Positions 3,316 through 54,660 of a stretch of DNA of 64,000 nucleotides are shown here, one piece after another. Each line of letters opens with the position of its first letter. Positions within the stretch are counted from its first letter, which is position 1. This DNA comes from Chrysemys picta bellii (Eukaryota). The DNA is taken from NCBI RefSeq assembly GCF_011386835.1, contig NC_088795.1, forward strand, positions 23,622,001-23,686,000, in the 5' to 3' direction. The notes under the pieces are model-generated. The model saw only the letters and a program-made list of their open reading frames with translations, did not search any database and was not told where the DNA came from. A program made the translations under genes and the position numbers.

Positions 3316-5067
3316 GAGCCGTCCTTTGTAGGTAATAAATCTGAGGAATTGTCACAGATTGAAGTGTCATTAGAGGAGGTTTTAGAATTAATTGATAAAC
3401 TTAAAATTAACAAGTCACCGGGATCAGATGGCATTCACCCAAGAGTTCTAAAAGAACTCAAATGTGAAATTGAGGAACTATTAACTATGGTTTGTAAACC
3501 TGTCCTTTAAATCAGATTCTGTACCCAATGACTAGAAGATAGCTAATGTAACGCCAATATTTTAAAAGGGCTCTAGAGGTGATCCCTGCAATTACAGACC
3601 AGAAAGTCTAACATCAGTACCGGGCAAATTAGTTGAAACAATAGTAAAGAATAAAATTGTCAGACACATAGAAGAACATAAATTGTTGGGCAAAAGTCAA
3701 CATGGTTTCTGTAAAAGGAAATCATGTCTTACTAATCTATTAGAGTTCTTTGAAGGGGTCAACAAACATGTGGGCAAGGGGGATCCAGTGGACATAGTGT
3801 ACTTAGATTTCCAGAAAGCCTTTGACAAGGTCCCTCACCAAAGGCTCTTACGTAAATTAAGTTGTCATGGGATAAGAGGGAAGATCCTTTCATGGATTGA
3901 GAACTGGTTATAAGACAGGGAATAAAGGGTAGGAATAAATGGTAAATTTTCAGAATGGAGAGGGGTAACTAGTGGTGTTCCCCAAGGGTCAGTCCTAGGA
4001 CCAATCGTATTCAGCTTATTCATAAATGATCTGGAGAAAGGGGTAAACAGTGAGGTGGCAAAGTTTGCAGACAATACCAAACTGCTCAAGATAGTTAAGA
4101 CCAAAGCAGACTGTGAAGAACTTCAAAAAGATCTCACAAAACTAAGTGATTGGGCAACAAAATGGAAATTATATATAATGTGGATAAATGTAAAGTAATG
4201 CACATAGGAAAAAATAACCCCAACTATACATACAATATGATGGGGGCTAATTTAGTTACAACTAATCAGGAAAGAGATCTTGGAGTCATCGTGGATAGTT
4301 CTCTGAAGACGTCCACGCAGTGTGCAGCGGCAGTCAAAAAAGCAAACAGGATGTTAGGAATCATTAAAAGGGGATAGAGAATAAGATGGAGAATATCTTA
4401 TTGCCCTTATATAAATCCATGGTACGCCCACATCTTGAATGCTGCATGCAGATATGGTCTCCTCATCTCAAAAAAGATATACTGGCATTAGAAAAGGTTC
4501 AGAGAAGGGCAACTAAAATGATTAGAGGTTTGGAACGGGTCCCATATGAGGAGAGATTAAAGAGGCTAGGACTTTTCAGTTTGGAAAAGAGGAGACTAAG
4601 CGGGGATATGATAGAGGTATGTAAAATCATGAGTTGTGTAGAGAAAGTGAATAAGGAAAAGTTATTTACTTGTTCCCATAATATAAAAACTAGGGGCCAC
4701 CAAATTAAATTAATGGGCAGCAGGTTTAAAACAAATAAAAGGAAGTTCTTCTTCACACAGCGCACAGTCAACCTGTGGAACTCCTTGCCTGAGGAGGTTG
4801 TGAAGGCTAGGACTATAACAGGGTTTAAAAAGAGAACTAGATAAATTCATGGAGGTTAAGCCATTAGCCAGGATGGGTAAGGAATGGTGTCCCTAGCCTC
4901 TGTTTGTCAGAGGGTGGAGATGGATGGCAGGAGAGAGATCACTTGATCATTGCCTGTTAGGTTCACTCCCTCTGGGGCACCTGGCATTGGCCACTGTTGG
5001 CAGACAGGATACTGGTCTGGATGGACCTTTGGTCTGATCCAGTATGGCCATTCTTATGTTCTTATGT
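3316..5067 (+). mobile_element. CR1 LINE, 5'-truncated ORF2/RT fragment with 3' UTR
   Basis: ORF fragments KSPGSDGIHPRVLKEL, YLDFQKAFDKVPH, KFADNT (FADD motif mutated), RNKRKFFFTQR-like C-terminus; stops and frameshifts; 3' tail ATTCTTATGTTCTTATGT. Confidence 0.97.
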
Positions 5068-8256: not shown

Positions 8257-9159
8257 AGAGGCACTGCCTGGTGGTCTGAATCCAAGCTTCAGAGTTTGGG
8301 GCAATTAAATTCTTATCACAACCATGGAGGACAGTGGGAATCTACCCATGAAGACAGTGTGAAATGCCGTTTCACTGCCATTAGGAAGGGGAAAACCAAA
8401 CAAAATTACCACATCACTACCGACAATCATAAGAAAAAAGAATAATCTGACTGGCCACCGCAAAGTGGATGAAACCACACTCTTTATCATTACATCTTTA
8501 ACAAATATCCCATCCATCACAATCTTTCCACTGCTAAGAGGACAGCTATACAGTCCCTGAAATCTAACCACCAGATAGGGATCAAAGTAGCAGACAAAGT
8601 CCTCAACCCTCATGACTACATTAACGAGGCCGACCAACAACTCTCCGACACCAACTACTATAAAGAACTCACAGAAAACCCCCACCACAATTTACCCAGG
8701 AATTTAAGGACATCATCAAATCCTTCCCAAACCACTCCAAGAGAAAATCTGCAAACTTATCCCACATGAACCCACCCAGGGACCTTCTAACATGCTTCCT
8801 AATATACACAAACAAGGGAACTGAAGGAGTATTGGAACTCATACAAACCATCCTTAAAACACTCACTGCACAAAGGGCCAGCTTTCTGCAGGACACAATT
8901 GACTTCTTTCAGAAATTCTGCTATATTAACAAACTCCCTCCAAACACCATCCGTGTCCCCATGGATGTCACCTCCCTATACACCAACATCCCTCACAGTG
9001 ATGGCATAGCTGCCTGCCTCACATATTTACAAGACAATGGAGAAACCTCAGATATCCACCCAGAACACATTGCCAAACTCATCCATTTCATCCTCACCTA
9101 CAGCAGTTTTACATTCAACAACAAACTCTTTGTCCAAATCATGGCAACAGCCATGGGTA

Positions 9160-9500
9160 CACAGGTGCCGACTTTGTGGGTGCTCCAGGGCTGGAGCATC
9201 CATGGAAAAAAATTAGTGGGTGGTTAGCACCCACCGGCAGCCAGCTCCCGCCTCAATCCCAGCGGCTCTCATCCACCGGCAGCCCTGCCGATCAACTCCT
9301 CCCCTGCCGTGAACAGCTGTTTCATGGCATTTAGGGAAGGGGATGAAACTGCGTGGTAAGAGGCACGGCAGGGGTGGAGTGGGCTCATGAAGTGGCAGGA
9401 CCGGGACTTGGAAGAAGGGGTGGGGCCTGGAGCAGAGCTGGGGTGGGGGTGGAGCGTGAGTTTGAGCACCTCTCCCCCCCCCACCCGGCCTGGAGGAAGC
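9160..9500. mobile_element. hAT MITE nested in Penelope RT; right TIR missing
   Basis: Left end CACAGGTGCCGAC; CATGGGTA at 9152-9159 is repeated at 9501-9508 (8-bp TSD, inside a 12-bp direct repeat AGCCATGGGTAC); GC-rich interior. Confidence 0.85.
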
Positions 9501-11630: not shown

Positions 11631-12904
11631 CATAGAATCATAGAATATCAGGGTTGGAAGGGACCTCAGGAGGTCATCTAGTCCAACCCCCTGCTCAAAG
11701 CAGGACCAATTCCCAACTAAATCATCCCAGCCAGGGCTTTGTCAAGCCTGACCTTAAAAACCTCTAAGGAAGGAGATTCCACCACCTCCCTAGGTAACCC
11801 ATTCCAGTGCTTCACTACCCTCTTAGTGAAATTTTTTTCCCTAATATCCAACCTAAACCATCCCCACTGCAACCTGAGATCATTACTCCTTGTTCTGTCA
11901 TCTGGTACCACTGAGAACAGTCTAGATCCATCCTCTTTGGAACCTCCTTTCAGGTAGTTGAAAGCAGCTATCAAATCCCCCCTCATTCTTCTCTTCTGCA
12001 GACTAAACAATCCCAGTTCCCTCAGACTCTCCTCCTAAGTCATGTGCTCCAGCCCCCTAATCATTTTTGTTGCCCTCCGCTGGACTCTTTCCAATTTTTC
12101 CACATCCTTCTTGTAGTGTGGGGCCCAAAACTGGACACCTACTCCAGATGAGGCTCACCAATGTCAAACAGAGGGGAATGATCACGTCCCTCGATCTGCT
12201 GGCAATGCCCCTATTTATACAGCCCAAAATGCCGTTAGCCTTCTTGGCAACAAGGGCACACTGTTGACTCATATCCAGCTTCTCATCCACTGTAACCCCT
12301 AGGTCCTTTTCTGCAGAACTGCCTCCTAGCCATATGGTCCCTAGTCTGTAGCAGTGCATGGGATTCTTCCATCCTAAGTGCAGGACTCTGCACTTGTCCT
12401 TGTTGAACCTCATCAGATTTCTTTTGGCCCAATCCTCTAATTTGTCTAGGTCCTTCTGTATCCTATCCCTACCCTCCAGCATATCTACCATTCCTCCCGG
12501 TTTAGTGTCATCTGCAAACTTGCTGAGGGTGCAGTCCACGCTATCCTCCAGATGATTAATGAAGATATTGAACAAAACCGGCCCCAGGACCGACCCTGGG
12601 GGCACTCCGCTTGATACCGGCTGCCAGCTAGACATGGAGCCATTGATCACTACCCGTTGAGCCCGATGATCTAGCCAGCTTTTTATCACCTTATAGTCCA
12701 TTCATCCAGCCCATACTTTTTTAACTTGCTGGCAAGAATACTGTGGGAGACTGTAACAAAAGCTTTGCTCAAGTCAAGGAATAACAAGTCCACTGCTTTA
12801 CCCTCATCCACGGAGCCAGTTTTCTCGTCATAGAAGGCAATTCATGACTTGCCCTTGTTGAATCAATGCTGACTGTTCCTGATCACTTTCCTCTCCTCTA
12901 AGTC
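11631..12904 (-). mobile_element. CR1 LINE 3' fragment, (ATTCTATG)n-tail subfamily
   Basis: Minus ORFs with LSKFADDTK and [26 protein letters not shown]; plus strand starts CATAGAATCATAGAAT (reverse complement of the octamer tail). Confidence 0.97.
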
Positions 12905-13782
12905 TATTAAGAGCATATTAAGAATGCCAAATCATCATTACATTAAGGTCATACATCAAATGAAAGGCATTATTTTCAAATCTATCAGAAATTACCTTCC
13001 CAATCACACCTACCATGACCTTCAGCTTCTAATAGACTAGGAGGCATTCACATCTGACCATTCATAGAAACCTTAAGCAAATTATATTACAAGTTGTTCA
13101 CTTTAAATCGAACCCATATGCTTTAAATAAAATTGCATACAGAATTCTACCTCCTGACAAAGCACCTCTAAATAATTTTAGGAGAAATTCTATGAGTCCT
13201 TTACGGTTTATGAACTGGATTTGCAATACAGGCAACCGCTAAAGGCAATGCCATTTTACAGCAATAGTAGGCAATTGTGAGATGATAAACATTCTTTTGT
13301 GGTACATAATGGAAATTATACAGGCAACTGAAACAGTTCAATCACCTTTTATCAGGTTGTCCTAACCAGTCTGAAAATATTCATCTTTTCAAGTTACAAA
13401 GAGAGGCCTTCTAGAATGAACTGTCAAAGTAGATGCAAATCTTGCAACAGGATTCCATGGCCGGACAAGCTTACTGCACTGGAGATCTAAGTTAATGTCA
13501 GCTAAAATAAACTGTTGCTATTAGAGACAGGTTTTTCTCCAGAGATTTAAAAAAAAATCAAAATGCAAAGATGTCAAGAGATCTCTAGTAAAATATAATC
13601 AACTTCCTTAAAGTTATGCCTATTCTGTGCATGAAAATAAGCTAGCAGTAGCCACACTTTCTTCGAAGTAAGCTCCATGGGGAAGGTTCTAACAGTCAAC
13701 AAGGACTCCTTTCTTCAACTTTACTGGCCATGTTTTGACAATTTGAGGGTCACACGCAAAAAATTGCTCCCACATGTGTGTA

Positions 13783-13982
13783 TGTAACCCACACACCTTC
13801 TGGGTGTGGTGTTCTGTTCCATCTAATGGCACCGAAACCACTTAAAGAGAGAGATAAAATGAGTCTGCTCTACAGCCTTAGCTAACAGGCTTTTAGCTCA
13901 TGCGGTAGAGGCTCATGCACTAAGCTTCAGAGGTCCCCAGTTCAATTCTGCCTGCCGACGACCACAGTCTGTCAGTGTTACA
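13783..13982 (+). mobile_element. solo LTR of a tRNA-carrying TRIM (Helenus-like)
   Basis: TGTAAC...GTTACA termini; TGTA at 13779-13782 and 13983-13986 (4-bp TSD); internal A box TAGCTCATGCGG (13894-13905) and B-box-like AGTTCAATTC (13939-13948). Confidence 0.75.
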
Positions 13983-14684
13983 TGTACATTTGCTGCTGCT
14001 AGGTATGCAACTAAGGACACAGTACATGCACAACCAACTTCTTAGTTGTCAAACTGGGTATTCTGCACAAGCAACTTCCTAGTTTGCACACAGACTTGCA
14101 TGAAGGCCTCAGTTCAGAGGACAATTTAAGTATGTTCTTAAGTTTATGTAGGTAAGCAGTCCTCCTGACTCCAGTGAAACTACACACAAACATCTAACTT
14201 TAAGCATGTGAAAGTCACTTACTGCATCAGAGCCTAAATGCACTGACATTAATTAACACAAGTAACCAATAAAAACCCTTATGAGGTTATTCAAAGCTCT
14301 CATGTTACTGCTACATACAAATTTAACAACATTATCACAAAAGGGCCATAAAACTGATATGCCATTTAGTTCCAGCCACTTGTTATTCAGGACAACACAC
14401 TAATTCTCTTTAATTAAAGGTTTTAACTAAGGCCCAAATATGCAACTGTCAAAACAATTTCAGTATTTTAATTCTTGGTTACCATTCTAAAAAGTTCTAA
14501 AGGAATCTGTTCATTTATGAACTGGTAAATTTTCATCTAAATGAATCCTTGCCGTCTTTATCCTCACTATAGTTTGAAAGTTTAAGGTTATATGTGATCT
14601 TCTATTTGTTTACTTTTTTTTTTAAATTGTATCAGTCCAATATTTTTTTCCAAAGAAGTCGTCCTTTAAAAAAGGATCGCCTTT

Positions 14685-22132: not shown

Positions 22133-22253
22133 CGTTTGGTCACATCAGGATATTTTGGCTCTTCTTTTTTCTTTGCTTCCCCAGGTGGTTCTATGGGTGT
22201 AAGTACTACGGCAGCACAGGAGACTATGGACTGATATGAATCTTCCCGGCAAA
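22133..22253 (-). CDS. CCSER1: internal coding exon of CCSER1 / FAM190A (coiled-coil serine-rich protein 1), 121 nt, phase 1 in / phase 2 out
   Basis: Acceptor TTTTATCTTCACAG, donor CG|GTGAGT; open frame (V)CREDSYQSIVSCAAVVLTPIEPPGEAKKKEEPKYPDVTKR matches the recalled human CCSER1 segment VCREDSYHSVVSCAAVVLTPMEPMIEMKKREEPEFPEPSKQ; to my recollection the human exon has the same length and phases. Too short to appear in the ORF track. Confidence 0.93.
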
Positions 22254-52630: not shown

Positions 52631-53891
52631 ATAGATTCATAGATTCTAGGACTGGAAGAGACCTCGAGAGGTCATCGAGTCCAGTCCCCAGCCCGCATGG
52701 CAGGACCAAATAATGTCTAGACCATCCCTGATAGACATTTATCTAACCTACTCTTAAAAATCTCCAGAAATGGAGATTCCACAACCTCCCTAGGCAATTT
52801 ATTCCAGTGTTTAATCACCCTGACAGTTAGGAACTTTTTCCTGATGTCCAACCTAAACCTCCCTTGCTGCAGTTTAAGTCCATTGCTTCTTGTTCTATCC
52901 TTAGAGGCTAAGGTGAACAAGTTTTCTCCCTCCTCCTTATGACACCCTTTTAAATACCTGAAAACTGCTATCATGTCCCCTTTCAGTCTTCTCTTTTCCA
53001 AACTAAACAAACCCAATTCTTTCAGCCTTCCTTCATAGCTCATGTTCTCAGGACCTTTAATCATTCTTGTTGCTCTTCTCTGGACCCTCTCCAATTTCTC
53101 CACATCTTTCTTGAAATGTGGTGCCCAGAACTGGACACAATACCCCAGTTGAGGCCTAACCAGCGCAGAGTAGAGCGAAAGAATGACTTCTCGTGTCTTG
53201 CTCACACCTGTTAATACATCCCAGAATCACGTTTGCTTTTTTTGCAACAGCATCACACTGTTGACTCATAACCCCTAGATCCCTTTCTGCCGTACTCCTT
53301 CCTAGACAGTCTCTTCCCATTCTGTATGTGTGAAACTGATTGTTCCTTCCTAAGTGGAGCACTTTGCATTTGTCTTTATTAAACTTCATCCTGTTTACCT
53401 CAGACCATTTCTCCAATTTGTCCAGATCATTTTGAATTATGACCCTGTCCTCCAAAGCAATTGCAATCCCTCCCAGTTTAGTATCATCTGCAAATTTAAT
53501 AAGCGTACTTTCTATGCCAATATCTAAGTCGCTGATGAAAATGTTGAACAGAACCAGTCCTAAAACAGACCCCAGCGGAACTCCACTTGTTATACCTTTC
53601 CAGCAGGATTGGGAACCATTAATAATTACTCTCTGGGTACAGTTATCCAGCCAGTTATGCACCCACCTTATAGTAGCCCCATCTAAGTTGTATTTGCCTA
53701 GTTTATTGATAAGAATATCATGTGACACCTTATCAAATGCCTTACTAAAGTCTAGGTATACCACATCCACCGCTTCTCCCTTATCCACAAGACTCGTTAT
53801 CCTATCAAAGAAAGCTATCAGATTGGTTTGACATGATTTGTTCTTTACAAATCCATGCTGGCTATTCCCTATCACCTTACCACCTTCCAAG
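52631..53891 (-). mobile_element. CR1 LINE 3' fragment, (AATCTATG)n-tail subfamily
   Basis: Minus ORFs with [32 protein letters not shown]; plus strand starts ATAGATTCATAGATTC; short internal deletion plus frameshift near 53270-53200. Confidence 0.97.
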
Positions 53892-54660
53892 CACCCACGC
53901 CTGGAGTCCTGTGAATATGTGAGAATCTCAACTTTCACTTAAAAAAAAAAAGACGACAACGATGTTTCTAGACCTCATGGTTGTGGGGAAAAGCTTAAGG
54001 ATATGACCCAAGTGTATCCCAAAGGCTTAAAAATTGGAAGACAAATAAGAATCAAAAATCCACATTTTTAAATCTTATTTTTGAATATTTTATGTTGGAA
54101 TACTACATTAAATTTACTTAAACAAGCGTAACAGATTACCTCTTTACAGCACATTTCTCCAGTACCCATCATACTAAGTCCCGATCAAAAGACTTTGGGT
54201 GCTGGTATAATATAACAGTAGTAATTCTAGGTGTGTAAAAGTAGGTTTGTAAGTTTGTTAATGTGCAATACTCATTCAGAGGGACGAATTTCAGTCAGAT
54301 GTATAATTTGCAAGTTTAGAAACTGTACATAAAATATTAAATATGAAAGCTTTTTTTAAATTATTCATATTATGAGTACCCAGGGAATTTTTTCAATCTG
54401 CATTCTTGTCTGTTTGCAGATGACATTGAACATCACTGTGTATGCTGGATCACAGATGTTGCTAAACAGAACAAACATGTTTTTGAAAAGCCAACTTTGG
54501 AGCACAGGGGGTGACACATACATTATACAAATCCAGCCTGACTTTCTTGAATGAAGAGAGGAAAGGATACATGGAAAACATCACTGTTGTCAAAAAGCTT
54601 GTCTGAGTAACAGCCCTATCTACTCCATGTTGTGTACAGCACCGAGAACACTCAAACTAC

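What the first reader, a model, noticed from the sequence alone, without database searches (positions are those of the whole stretch)
13779..13986. 200-bp solo LTR carrying a tRNA-like Pol III promoter (Helenus-like TRIM)
Seen: TGTAAC...GTTACA inverted ends, an exact 4-bp TSD (TGTA), and in the 3' half a tRNA-like cassette with A box TAGCTCATGCGG (13894-13905) and B-box-like AGTTCAATTC (13939-13948). There is no poly-A or LINE-derived tail, so it is not an ordinary tRNA SINE. Established: Cassandra TRIMs carry 5S RNA in their LTRs, and, as I recall, a TRIM group named Helenus carries tRNA-like sequence in its LTRs with 4-bp TSDs in animals. Inference: a recombined solo LTR of such an element, an LTR/SINE hybrid transcribed by Pol III and integrated by a Gypsy-type integrase. 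The cassette faces antisense to CCSER1.
Basis: partly seen in the sequence, partly recalled or inferred. Interest (0 to 1): 0.7.

Follow-up and report, generated by a model that had tools for sequence, protein, structure and literature searches.

The report
Turtle tRNA-promoter mini retrotransposon (Helenus)
This 200-base stretch in a turtle gene is the lone end-repeat of a tiny, gene-less jumping element that carries a tRNA look-alike, is likely copied by RNA polymerase III and likely borrowed its enzymes from a Gypsy element; it belongs to the Helenus type described in 2024, for which I found no earlier record in a land vertebrate.

Summary
Confirmed. Window 13783-13982 is a solo LTR (TGTAAC...GTTACA, 4-bp duplication TGTA) of a family with at least 889 LTR copies in this turtle genome. 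Two-LTR copies exist: about 207-bp LTR, 74-bp internal part, LTR, with a primer site matching 17-20 of 20 bases of the host tRNA-Pro end, a polypurine tract and 4-bp duplications. A and B boxes hold across copies, so it meets every sequence criterion of Helenus (Kojima 2024), whose list has no tetrapod and no vertebrate tRNA-Pro user. The helper was likely a relative of a Gypsy family found here (same primer site, similar 3' end, 4-bp duplication); the exact partner was not found. The family is old (LTR-LTR distance about 0.18) and this copy is decayed. One addition: an inverted copy of the A-box arm lies just upstream of the cassette and forms a hairpin; by eye the same layout is in most published vertebrate and bivalve Helenus LTRs, and the paper does not mention it. 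It would clamp the two ends of a roughly 290-base Pol III RNA. Transcription is untested. The scan has found Helenus on other DNA (fungi, a liverwort, invertebrates), none like this sequence.

The parts
13779..13782 (.). left target-site duplication TGTA
   Evidence: 4-bp duplications across the family
13783..13982 (+). solo LTR of a tRNA-bearing TRIM (200 bp; most copies about 207 bp)
   Evidence: two-LTR relatives
13783..13788 (+). 5' terminal inverted repeat TGTAAC
13868..13887 (+). inverted copy of the A-box arm (5' arm of the hairpin; predicted U3 end)
   Evidence: inverted repeat I1 (21 nt, 81% complementary); folding z-scores
13887..13888 (+). site of a 7-base deletion that removed the hairpin tip in this copy (the tip is the predicted Pol III start region)
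   Evidence: alignment; 6 copies with this deletion against 889 with the tip
13891..13894 (+). run of four T ending on the first A-box base; as a rule the only T4 run of the element; predicted Pol III terminator
   Evidence: 30 of 30 and 39 of 43 LTRs; one other run in 30 LTRs and one in 30 internal parts
13888..13956 (+). tRNA-like cassette, nearest to tRNA-Cys(GCA) among the host tRNAs tested; not a folding tRNA
   Evidence: mean score 54 against 22 for shuffles; negative
13894..13905 (+). A box
13939..13948 (+). B box, decayed in this copy (most copies GGTTCRATCC)
13977..13982 (+). 3' terminal inverted repeat GTTACA
13983..13986 (.). right target-site duplication TGTA
22133..22253 (-). context only: CCSER1 coding exon; the LTR lies 8 kb further along the gene, likely in the following intron

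Best explanation
[quoted passage not shown] Shown: the two-LTR layout, the tRNA-Pro primer site, the polypurine tract, 4-bp duplications, the conserved boxes, the T4 run and the inverted arm. Inferred cycle: Pol III starts about 10 bases upstream of the A box in the 5' LTR (the hairpin tip), reads through the internal part and the start of the 3' LTR, and stops at the T4 run there, giving an RNA of about 290 bases with only about 11 bases repeated at both ends. The inverted arm, now at the RNA's 3' end, would pair with the A-box arm at its 5' end and hold the ends together for the first strand transfer. Host tRNA-Pro primes the minus strand, the purine tract the plus strand, and a Gypsy integrase inserts the DNA with a 4-bp stagger, preferring RTG|CWWG|CAY sites. 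The family is old and looks extinct; this copy, with its tip deleted and B box changed, is likely an inert relic in a CCSER1 intron.
For: Two-LTR copies: internal part 74 nt in 30 of 30 loci picked by that part; next LTR 68-74 nt after the LTR-PBS junction in 27 of 30 loci picked by the junction. PBS: 17-20 of 20 bases complementary to host tRNA-Pro plus CCA in 30 of 30. Duplications: 15 of 24 exact; in 30 loci taken in genome order, 9 of the 15 solos with both ends located are exact and 13 within one mismatch. Boxes within one mismatch: A 27 of 30 and 38 of 43, B 26 of 28 and 33 of 36. Helper: a Gypsy family with PNMA-type gag, RT, RNase H and integrase has the same PBS, TGTAAG...GTTACA ends, 4-bp duplications (2 of 2) and a 3' internal end like the TRIM's (2 of 2000 shuffles as good; the ERV-type family 575 of 2000). 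Hairpin: mean z -3.1 in 30 of 30 LTRs against +0.9 for the adjacent stretch; predicted 282-300-nt unit with 18.9 expected end-to-end pairs against 7.9 with the arm shuffled, 10 copies. Same hairpin layout by eye in 17 of 18 vertebrate, 33 of 51 bivalve and 3 of 3 nemertean Helenus LTRs of the paper's data file, with different sequences. Cyclization by end pairing is described for Ty1 (PMC7969010) and a short repeat from Pol III for Cassandra (as summarised in PMC10886601).
Against: No transcript start, end or strand could be shown; RNA-type contigs cover the family but often run on into flanks. The hairpin folds as well on the antisense strand (z -3.5) and shows no compensatory change within the family (0 pairs). 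Two of 10 predicted units pair their ends no better than the control. Many published hairpin-type LTRs have only three T at this place and some have a T run behind the cassette, so the terminator reading may not be general. The young Gypsy family does not share the G next to the duplication (3 of 24 against 31 of 44, p 8e-6) and its LTR is unlike the TRIM's, so it is at most a relative of the helper. No long element with the TRIM's own purine tract or LTR was found.
Confidence: 0.82

Rival explanations
1. Same element, but mobilised by an endogenous retrovirus of the gamma/epsilon type rather than by a Gypsy element.
For: An env-bearing family with an MLV-like integrase end uses the same tRNA-Pro site and has a 4-bp duplication; 9 of the first 30 exact PBS matches belong to it. 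G next to the duplication: 8 of 17, closer to the TRIM's 31 of 44 than the Gypsy's 3 of 24.
Against: Its 3' internal end is no more like the TRIM's than shuffles are (575 of 2000); its LTR ends differ; first base of the duplication is a pyrimidine in only 4 of 17 against 36 of 44 for the TRIM and 17 of 24 for the Gypsy. The TCGGGACG-type word before the purine tract is in the TRIM, the Gypsy and, in near forms, in published animal Helenus. Kojima ties animal Helenus to Gypsy.
Confidence: 0.12
2. The tRNA-like piece is a passenger (an old SINE head caught in the LTR); the element was transcribed by Pol II or by read-through, and the hairpin is a by-product of an inverted duplication or acts only as a local stem or DNA cruciform.
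For: No expression data; no strand bias in folding; no covariation within the family; the hairpin tip is deleted in several copies of different sequence background, as expected of a DNA palindrome.
Against: Both boxes and their spacing are kept although the cloverleaf is lost; the single T4 run sits where a terminator is needed; the arm follows the A-box sequence in unrelated published families, often through G-U-type pairs on the sense strand (by eye).
Confidence: 0.25
3. An ordinary tRNA-derived SINE or a chance arrangement.
For: tRNA-like head of SINE type; 200-bp size.
Against: Fixed TGT...ACA ends, fixed 4-bp duplications, no tail, two-LTR copies with PBS and PPT; the cassette is not more deeply covered than the LTR's 5' part in four genomic runs, so it is not the head of a separate abundant SINE at 85% likeness.
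Confidence: 0.01

Closest known systems
Helenus (TRIMp3), Kojima 2024, Biology 13:119, PMC10886601 (whole main text read; supplement parts 5-7 of 11 read, the rest only searched by terms)
   Same: TRIM under 1000 bp; tRNA-like piece with A and B boxes in each LTR; PBS and PPT in a short internal part; 4-bp duplications as in animal families; many solo LTRs; occasional tandem arrays; cassette not a functional tRNA.
   Different: Host: the paper's Table 1 lists coelacanth and ray-finned fishes as the only vertebrates, and 'turtle' does not occur in text or supplement. Primer: tRNA-Pro, given there for bivalves but not for vertebrates (His, Leu, Lys). Sequence differs from the listed families by eye. 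The upstream inverted arm is not mentioned in the paper.
LTR1_LCh / LTR2_Lch (coelacanth Helenus) and LTR-11_DR (zebrafish Helenus)
   Same: About 200-bp LTRs with TGTAA...TTACA ends, cassette in the 3' half, inverted arm just upstream of the A box with a T run at its base, short internal part (by eye).
   Different: Other primer tRNAs and other LTR sequence; T run of three rather than four. Common descent or separate origin was not tested.
Cassandra (plant TRIM with 5S piece)
   Same: Pol III promoter inside the LTR; transcript reported to start in the 5' LTR and end in the 3' LTR with an 18-base repeat (as summarised in PMC10886601; the 2008 paper was not held); self-complementary LTRs predicted to fold into a long hairpin (passages of PMC7215508); tandem arrays.
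   Different: 5S rather than tRNA promoter; plants; transcription was tested for Cassandra, not here.
Gypsy elements with PNMA-type gag (Metaviridae lineage near the PNMA genes; passages of PMC11011659)
   Same: A family of this kind in the same genome shares primer site, LTR end pattern, 3' internal end and 4-bp duplication.
   Different: It is autonomous, has 1.5-kb LTRs unlike the TRIM's, is far younger (99.7-100% identity over the parts of the LTR pairs compared in 2 copies) and has a partly different target preference.

Membership tests
Helenus (TRIMp3) | two LTRs around a short non-coding internal part, total under about 1000 bp | tested here: met
   LTR about 207 + 74 + LTR, about 450-490 bp
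Helenus (TRIMp3) | tRNA-derived sequence inside the LTR with A box (TRGCY...YGG) and B box (GGTTC) | tested here: met
   boxes within one mismatch in about 9 of 10 located sites; alignment to host tRNA-Cys far above shuffles
Helenus (TRIMp3) | PBS complementary to a tRNA end, directly behind the 5' LTR | tested here: met
   17-20 of 20 bases match host tRNA-Pro plus CCA in 30 of 30, two bases behind the LTR
Helenus (TRIMp3) | polypurine tract before the 3' LTR | tested here: met
   AGGGGAAG-type tract ending two bases before TGT
Helenus (TRIMp3) | 4-bp target-site duplication (animal families) | tested here: met
Helenus (TRIMp3) | cassette is not a functional tRNA and is not the primer | tested here: met
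   no ARAGORN or Rfam call at normal thresholds; 4 of 30 weak calls at a lowered threshold; cassette Cys-like, PBS Pro
Helenus (TRIMp3) | transcription by RNA polymerase III (untested for Helenus in the paper too) | not testable with these tools
   only contigs were available; they show no start, end or strand
Helenus (TRIMp3) | mobilisation by a Gypsy element (proposed for animal families) | tested here: inconclusive
   a Gypsy family shares PBS and 3' end but not the whole target preference; exact partner not found
Helenus (TRIMp3) | identity with a named Repbase or Dfam family | not testable with these tools
   neither library is held; no turtle entry in the paper's Table S1
tRNA-derived SINE | tail of simple repeats or LINE origin, variable duplications, no LTR structure | tested here: not met
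Retrozyme or ribozyme-bearing TRIM | hammerhead or twister ribozyme in the LTR | tested here: not met
   no ribozyme family in Rfam scans of the window copy and 20 loci; decayed or variant ribozymes could be missed

The most novel reading that the evidence does not exclude
Most animal Helenus elements, this turtle family included, solve the problem of a Pol III transcript with an almost absent terminal repeat by carrying an antisense copy of their own A-box arm in U3: in the RNA the two arms lie at opposite ends and clamp the genome into a circle for strand transfer. This would be an unreported, covarying RNA element shared from bivalves to turtles, and the turtle family would be the first Pol III-driven LTR element recorded in an amniote.
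Probability: 0.35. Interest if true: 0.65.

Novelty: new member of a known kind. Interest (0 to 1): 0.42.

Why it matters
It extends Pol III-type LTR elements to amniotes and gives a family of about a thousand or more copies that can be misannotated as tRNA pseudogenes or SINEs in turtle genomes. It names a helper lineage (Gypsy with PNMA-type gag, tRNA-Pro primer) for an animal Helenus. The hairpin, if functional, makes an open question testable: how an LTR element driven by an internal Pol III promoter regenerates full LTRs with a terminal repeat of only about ten bases. The single copy in the window has no sign of a function.

Tried and rejected
ARAGORN and Rfam on the window copy: no tRNA or other RNA family; Rfam on 20 loci and on the tandem copy: nothing over the LTRs, so no ribozyme reading. 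Whole-LTR folding is not better than shuffles (z -0.3); only the arm region is. No second copy in the window. Searches for the direct autonomous partner: the TRIM's purine tract followed by another LTR start, 0 matches; a looser 3'-end pattern, 21 matches, all TRIM copies or pieces; LTR-PBS junction, 58 matches, none of the 30 examined leads into a long coding part. TRIM LTR against Gypsy LTR: score 45, shuffles up to 44. Covariation inside the family: none. An empty site in related organisms: none among the joints shown for four runs; 16 further joints were not shown. RNA-type contigs: cover LTR and internal part but cannot show a Pol III unit. A short-motif scan for the host gene found nothing; a splice-site scan found the exon. 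Pfam has no family for that exon. Literature searches for a turtle or tetrapod Helenus or for the hairpin: nothing relevant in the listings beyond the 2024 paper; subscription papers, Repbase and Dfam were not searchable. The published Helenus sequences were compared by eye only, so the hairpin counts for them are not computed.

Full report
1. The observation. The window reads TGTA, then 200 bases from TGTAAC (13783) to GTTACA (13982), then TGTA; the A box and the B-box-like word are at the stated places. No other stretch of 150-250 bases in the window has such ends and duplication, and there is no second copy in the window. ARAGORN finds no tRNA in the window and Rfam nothing over the element. 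The host gene is CCSER1: an exon on the minus strand at about 22133-22253 matches turtle CCSER1 proteins best (85-97% for six turtles, 75% for alligator) and is the only CCSER1 match in the window. The host is therefore a turtle by inference, and the element, on the plus strand, faces against the gene, likely in the intron after that exon.

2. The family. A search of the own genome gave 3088 first-look candidates, of which 40 were scored, at 85-89% identity over nearly the full length for the best. An exact 19-base motif from the LTR middle occurs 889 times, a lower bound for LTR copies. Of the 30 best loci 24 are solo; 15 of 24 have an exact 4-bp duplication, 21 of 24 within one mismatch, none at 3, 5 or 6 bp, against 2.2% exact for mismatched pairs. 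In 30 loci taken in genome order, 24 are solo and 6 are arms of two-LTR copies; 9 solos were dropped because an end could not be placed, and of the other 15, 9 are exact and 13 within one mismatch. Target sites are biased to RTG|CWWG|CAY.

3. Two-LTR copies. Several hits came in pairs about 280 bases apart start to start. The part between them had 453 candidates. In all 30 loci fetched it is 74 bases long; 9 of 30 have an exact 4-bp duplication around the whole element, and in many of the rest an outer end was missing or not located. In an independent set picked by the LTR-PBS junction (58 matches, 30 examined) the next LTR starts 68-74 bases on in 27. The internal part opens, two bases behind the LTR, with a site complementary to the host tRNA-Pro end plus CCA at 17-20 of 20 bases in 30 of 30 copies (tRNA-Pro genes confirmed in 10 of 11 loci) and closes with a purine tract. 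It has no coding capacity. This is a TRIM, and the window copy is its solo LTR; recombination between LTRs is the established route to such copies.

4. The cassette. The A box is within one mismatch of the rule in 27 of 30 best copies and in 38 of the 43 arms (of 58) where it could be located; the B box in 26 of 28 and 33 of 36. Among 29 distinct host tRNA sequences of nine amino acids, tRNA-Cys(GCA) scores best (mean 54; Ala and Phe 48; shuffles 22, at most 39); the set is incomplete, so the parent is tentative. Only 4 of 30 copies get a weak ARAGORN call at a lowered threshold. The window copy has A for G at the first B-box base and lacks 7 bases that most copies have just before the cassette; that deletion is in 6 copies of differing background against 889 with the tip.

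5. Age and state. The two LTRs of 13 clean copies differ by a median K2P distance of 0.18 (0.14-0.22; 0.14 without CG-context sites). With turtle substitution rates as I recall them (roughly 0.5-1 per thousand sites per million years) that is on the order of 100 million years; this is a rough inference. Contigs of four other organism labels run from both unique flanks into the element and none of the joints shown skips it, while the flanks differ by only 0-8 bases in about 500-600: the insertion is shared and older than those splits.

6. The helper. An exact 18-base tRNA-Pro site occurs 544 times. Of the first 30, 8 belong to a Gypsy family with PNMA-type gag, RT, RNase H and integrase, 9 to an env-bearing retrovirus-type family, 13 to unclassified families. 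The Gypsy has TGTAAG...GTTACA ends, 4-bp duplications in 2 of 2 copies and a 3' internal end that aligns with the TRIM's (2 of 2000 shuffles as good; the retroviral end 575 of 2000). Target sites are mixed evidence: pyrimidine first and purine last in the duplication agree between TRIM (36 and 37 of 44) and Gypsy (17 and 21 of 24) but not the retroviral family (4 and 10 of 17), whereas the G next to the duplication (31 of 44) is rare for the Gypsy (3 of 24) and intermediate for the retroviral family (8 of 17). This Gypsy family is young and the TRIM is old, and their LTRs are unlike. I read it as a relative of the helper. Direct searches for the partner failed.

7. The hairpin and the likely cycle. 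Just upstream of the cassette lies an inverted copy of the A-box arm. The region folds with mean z -3.1 in 30 of 30 best copies (control stretch +0.9) and -1.7 in the 33 of 58 arms that could be scored (control +0.6); the antisense strand folds as well, and there is no compensatory change inside this single, decaying family. A run of four T ends on the first A-box base in 30 of 30 and 39 of 43 LTRs and is as a rule the only such run in the element. From established Pol III behaviour (start a few bases upstream of the tRNA 5' end, stop at four T; recalled), a transcript would begin at the hairpin tip in the 5' LTR and end at the T run in the 3' LTR: 282-300 bases in the 11 copies that passed the filters, with about 11 bases repeated. 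The two arms then lie at opposite ends; folding gives 18.9 expected pairs between the ends against 7.9 with the arm shuffled (10 copies, two of them no better than control). Reading the published sequences by eye, I find the same inverted arm in 17 of 18 vertebrate, 33 of 51 bivalve and 3 of 3 nemertean LTRs, and not in the one ctenophore and three brachiopod LTRs; the wasp families in view were not scored. The arm follows the A-box sequence as it changes between families, often with G-T oppositions that pair on the sense strand. Against a general terminator role, many of those LTRs have three T there. End pairing as an aid to reverse transcription is known from Ty1 (passages of PMC7969010), and self-complementary LTRs are predicted for Cassandra (passages of PMC7215508). 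RNA-type contigs cover the family but show no start, end or strand. So the layout is shown, the cycle is inferred.

8. Comparison with what is known. Kojima 2024 (PMC10886601; whole main text; supplement parts 5-7 of 11 and term searches) defines Helenus as TRIMs with a tRNA-like piece in the LTR, PBS, PPT and, in animals, 4-bp duplications. All testable features are met. The paper lists no tetrapod, gives His, Leu and Lys primers for vertebrates, and has no occurrence of 'hairpin', 'inverted' or 'palindrom' in its main text; its figures and supplementary figures were not seen as pictures. Searches listed no paper on a turtle or tetrapod Helenus or on the hairpin (listings only; PMC13570524 passages merely cite the 2024 paper). 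Repbase and Dfam could not be checked, and the family may be there under a plain LTR name. Earlier notes of this scan report Helenus in fungi, a liverwort and invertebrates, two with twister-like motifs; none matches this sequence, and Rfam shows no ribozyme here.

9. Verdict. Real, correctly read by the first stage, and a new member of a known kind: a Helenus-type TRIM in a turtle, with a tRNA-Pro primer and a likely Gypsy helper. The copy itself is a decayed relic. What lifts it above a host record is the unreported inverted arm, which suggests a testable answer to how these elements copy themselves. Interest 0.42.

Noticed in passing
L132 (minus strand), L133, L253, L254: Young Gypsy family with PNMA-type gag, tRNA-Pro primer site and 1.5-kb LTRs; 1555 exact matches to its first 21 LTR bases in the genome; one copy has a single open frame of 1850 codons and 99.7% identity over the 886 LTR bases compared.
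   Followed up: partly
L134:447-7361: Young endogenous-retrovirus-type family (MLV-like integrase end, env piece) with identical 419-bp LTRs, tRNA-Pro primer site and 4-bp duplication; frames are interrupted in this copy; 258 matches to its LTR start.
   Followed up: partly
L104, L105, L106, L111, L112, L115, L116, L121, L124, L125, L129, L130, L131: Further LTR families with an exact tRNA-Pro primer site, not classified; no Pfam hit for the three frames tried.
   Followed up: no
L067:1307-about 1970: Tandem array LTR-internal-LTR-internal-LTR(part) of the TRIM with 96-99% identical units, far above the family's usual 81-87%: likely a local duplication or conversion.
   Followed up: partly
L255 around 1505-1650: A TRIM copy whose internal part runs into an inverted LTR (fold-back).
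   Followed up: no
L212 around 1650, L248, L231, L218, L246: Other repeats have inserted into the TRIM LTR at or near the A-box arm in several copies.
   Followed up: no
PMC10886601 supplement, parts 5-7: By eye, animal Helenus LTRs fall into two layouts: inverted arm upstream with a T run at the cassette start, or an intact acceptor stem with a T run behind the cassette; the split is not clean.
   Followed up: partly
window 4368-4844, 12057-12701, 52717-53938, 8664-9227: Open frames that read like reverse-transcriptase pieces of CR1-type LINEs and, at 8664-9227, of a Penelope-like element (labels recalled, not tested).
   Followed up: no
L020:2631-2748: Weak 5S rRNA match (29.7 bits, below the cut-off), perhaps a 5S-derived repeat.
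   Followed up: no
window 14027-14091: Two 28-base direct repeats, 82% alike, 37 bases apart, just right of the element.
   Followed up: no
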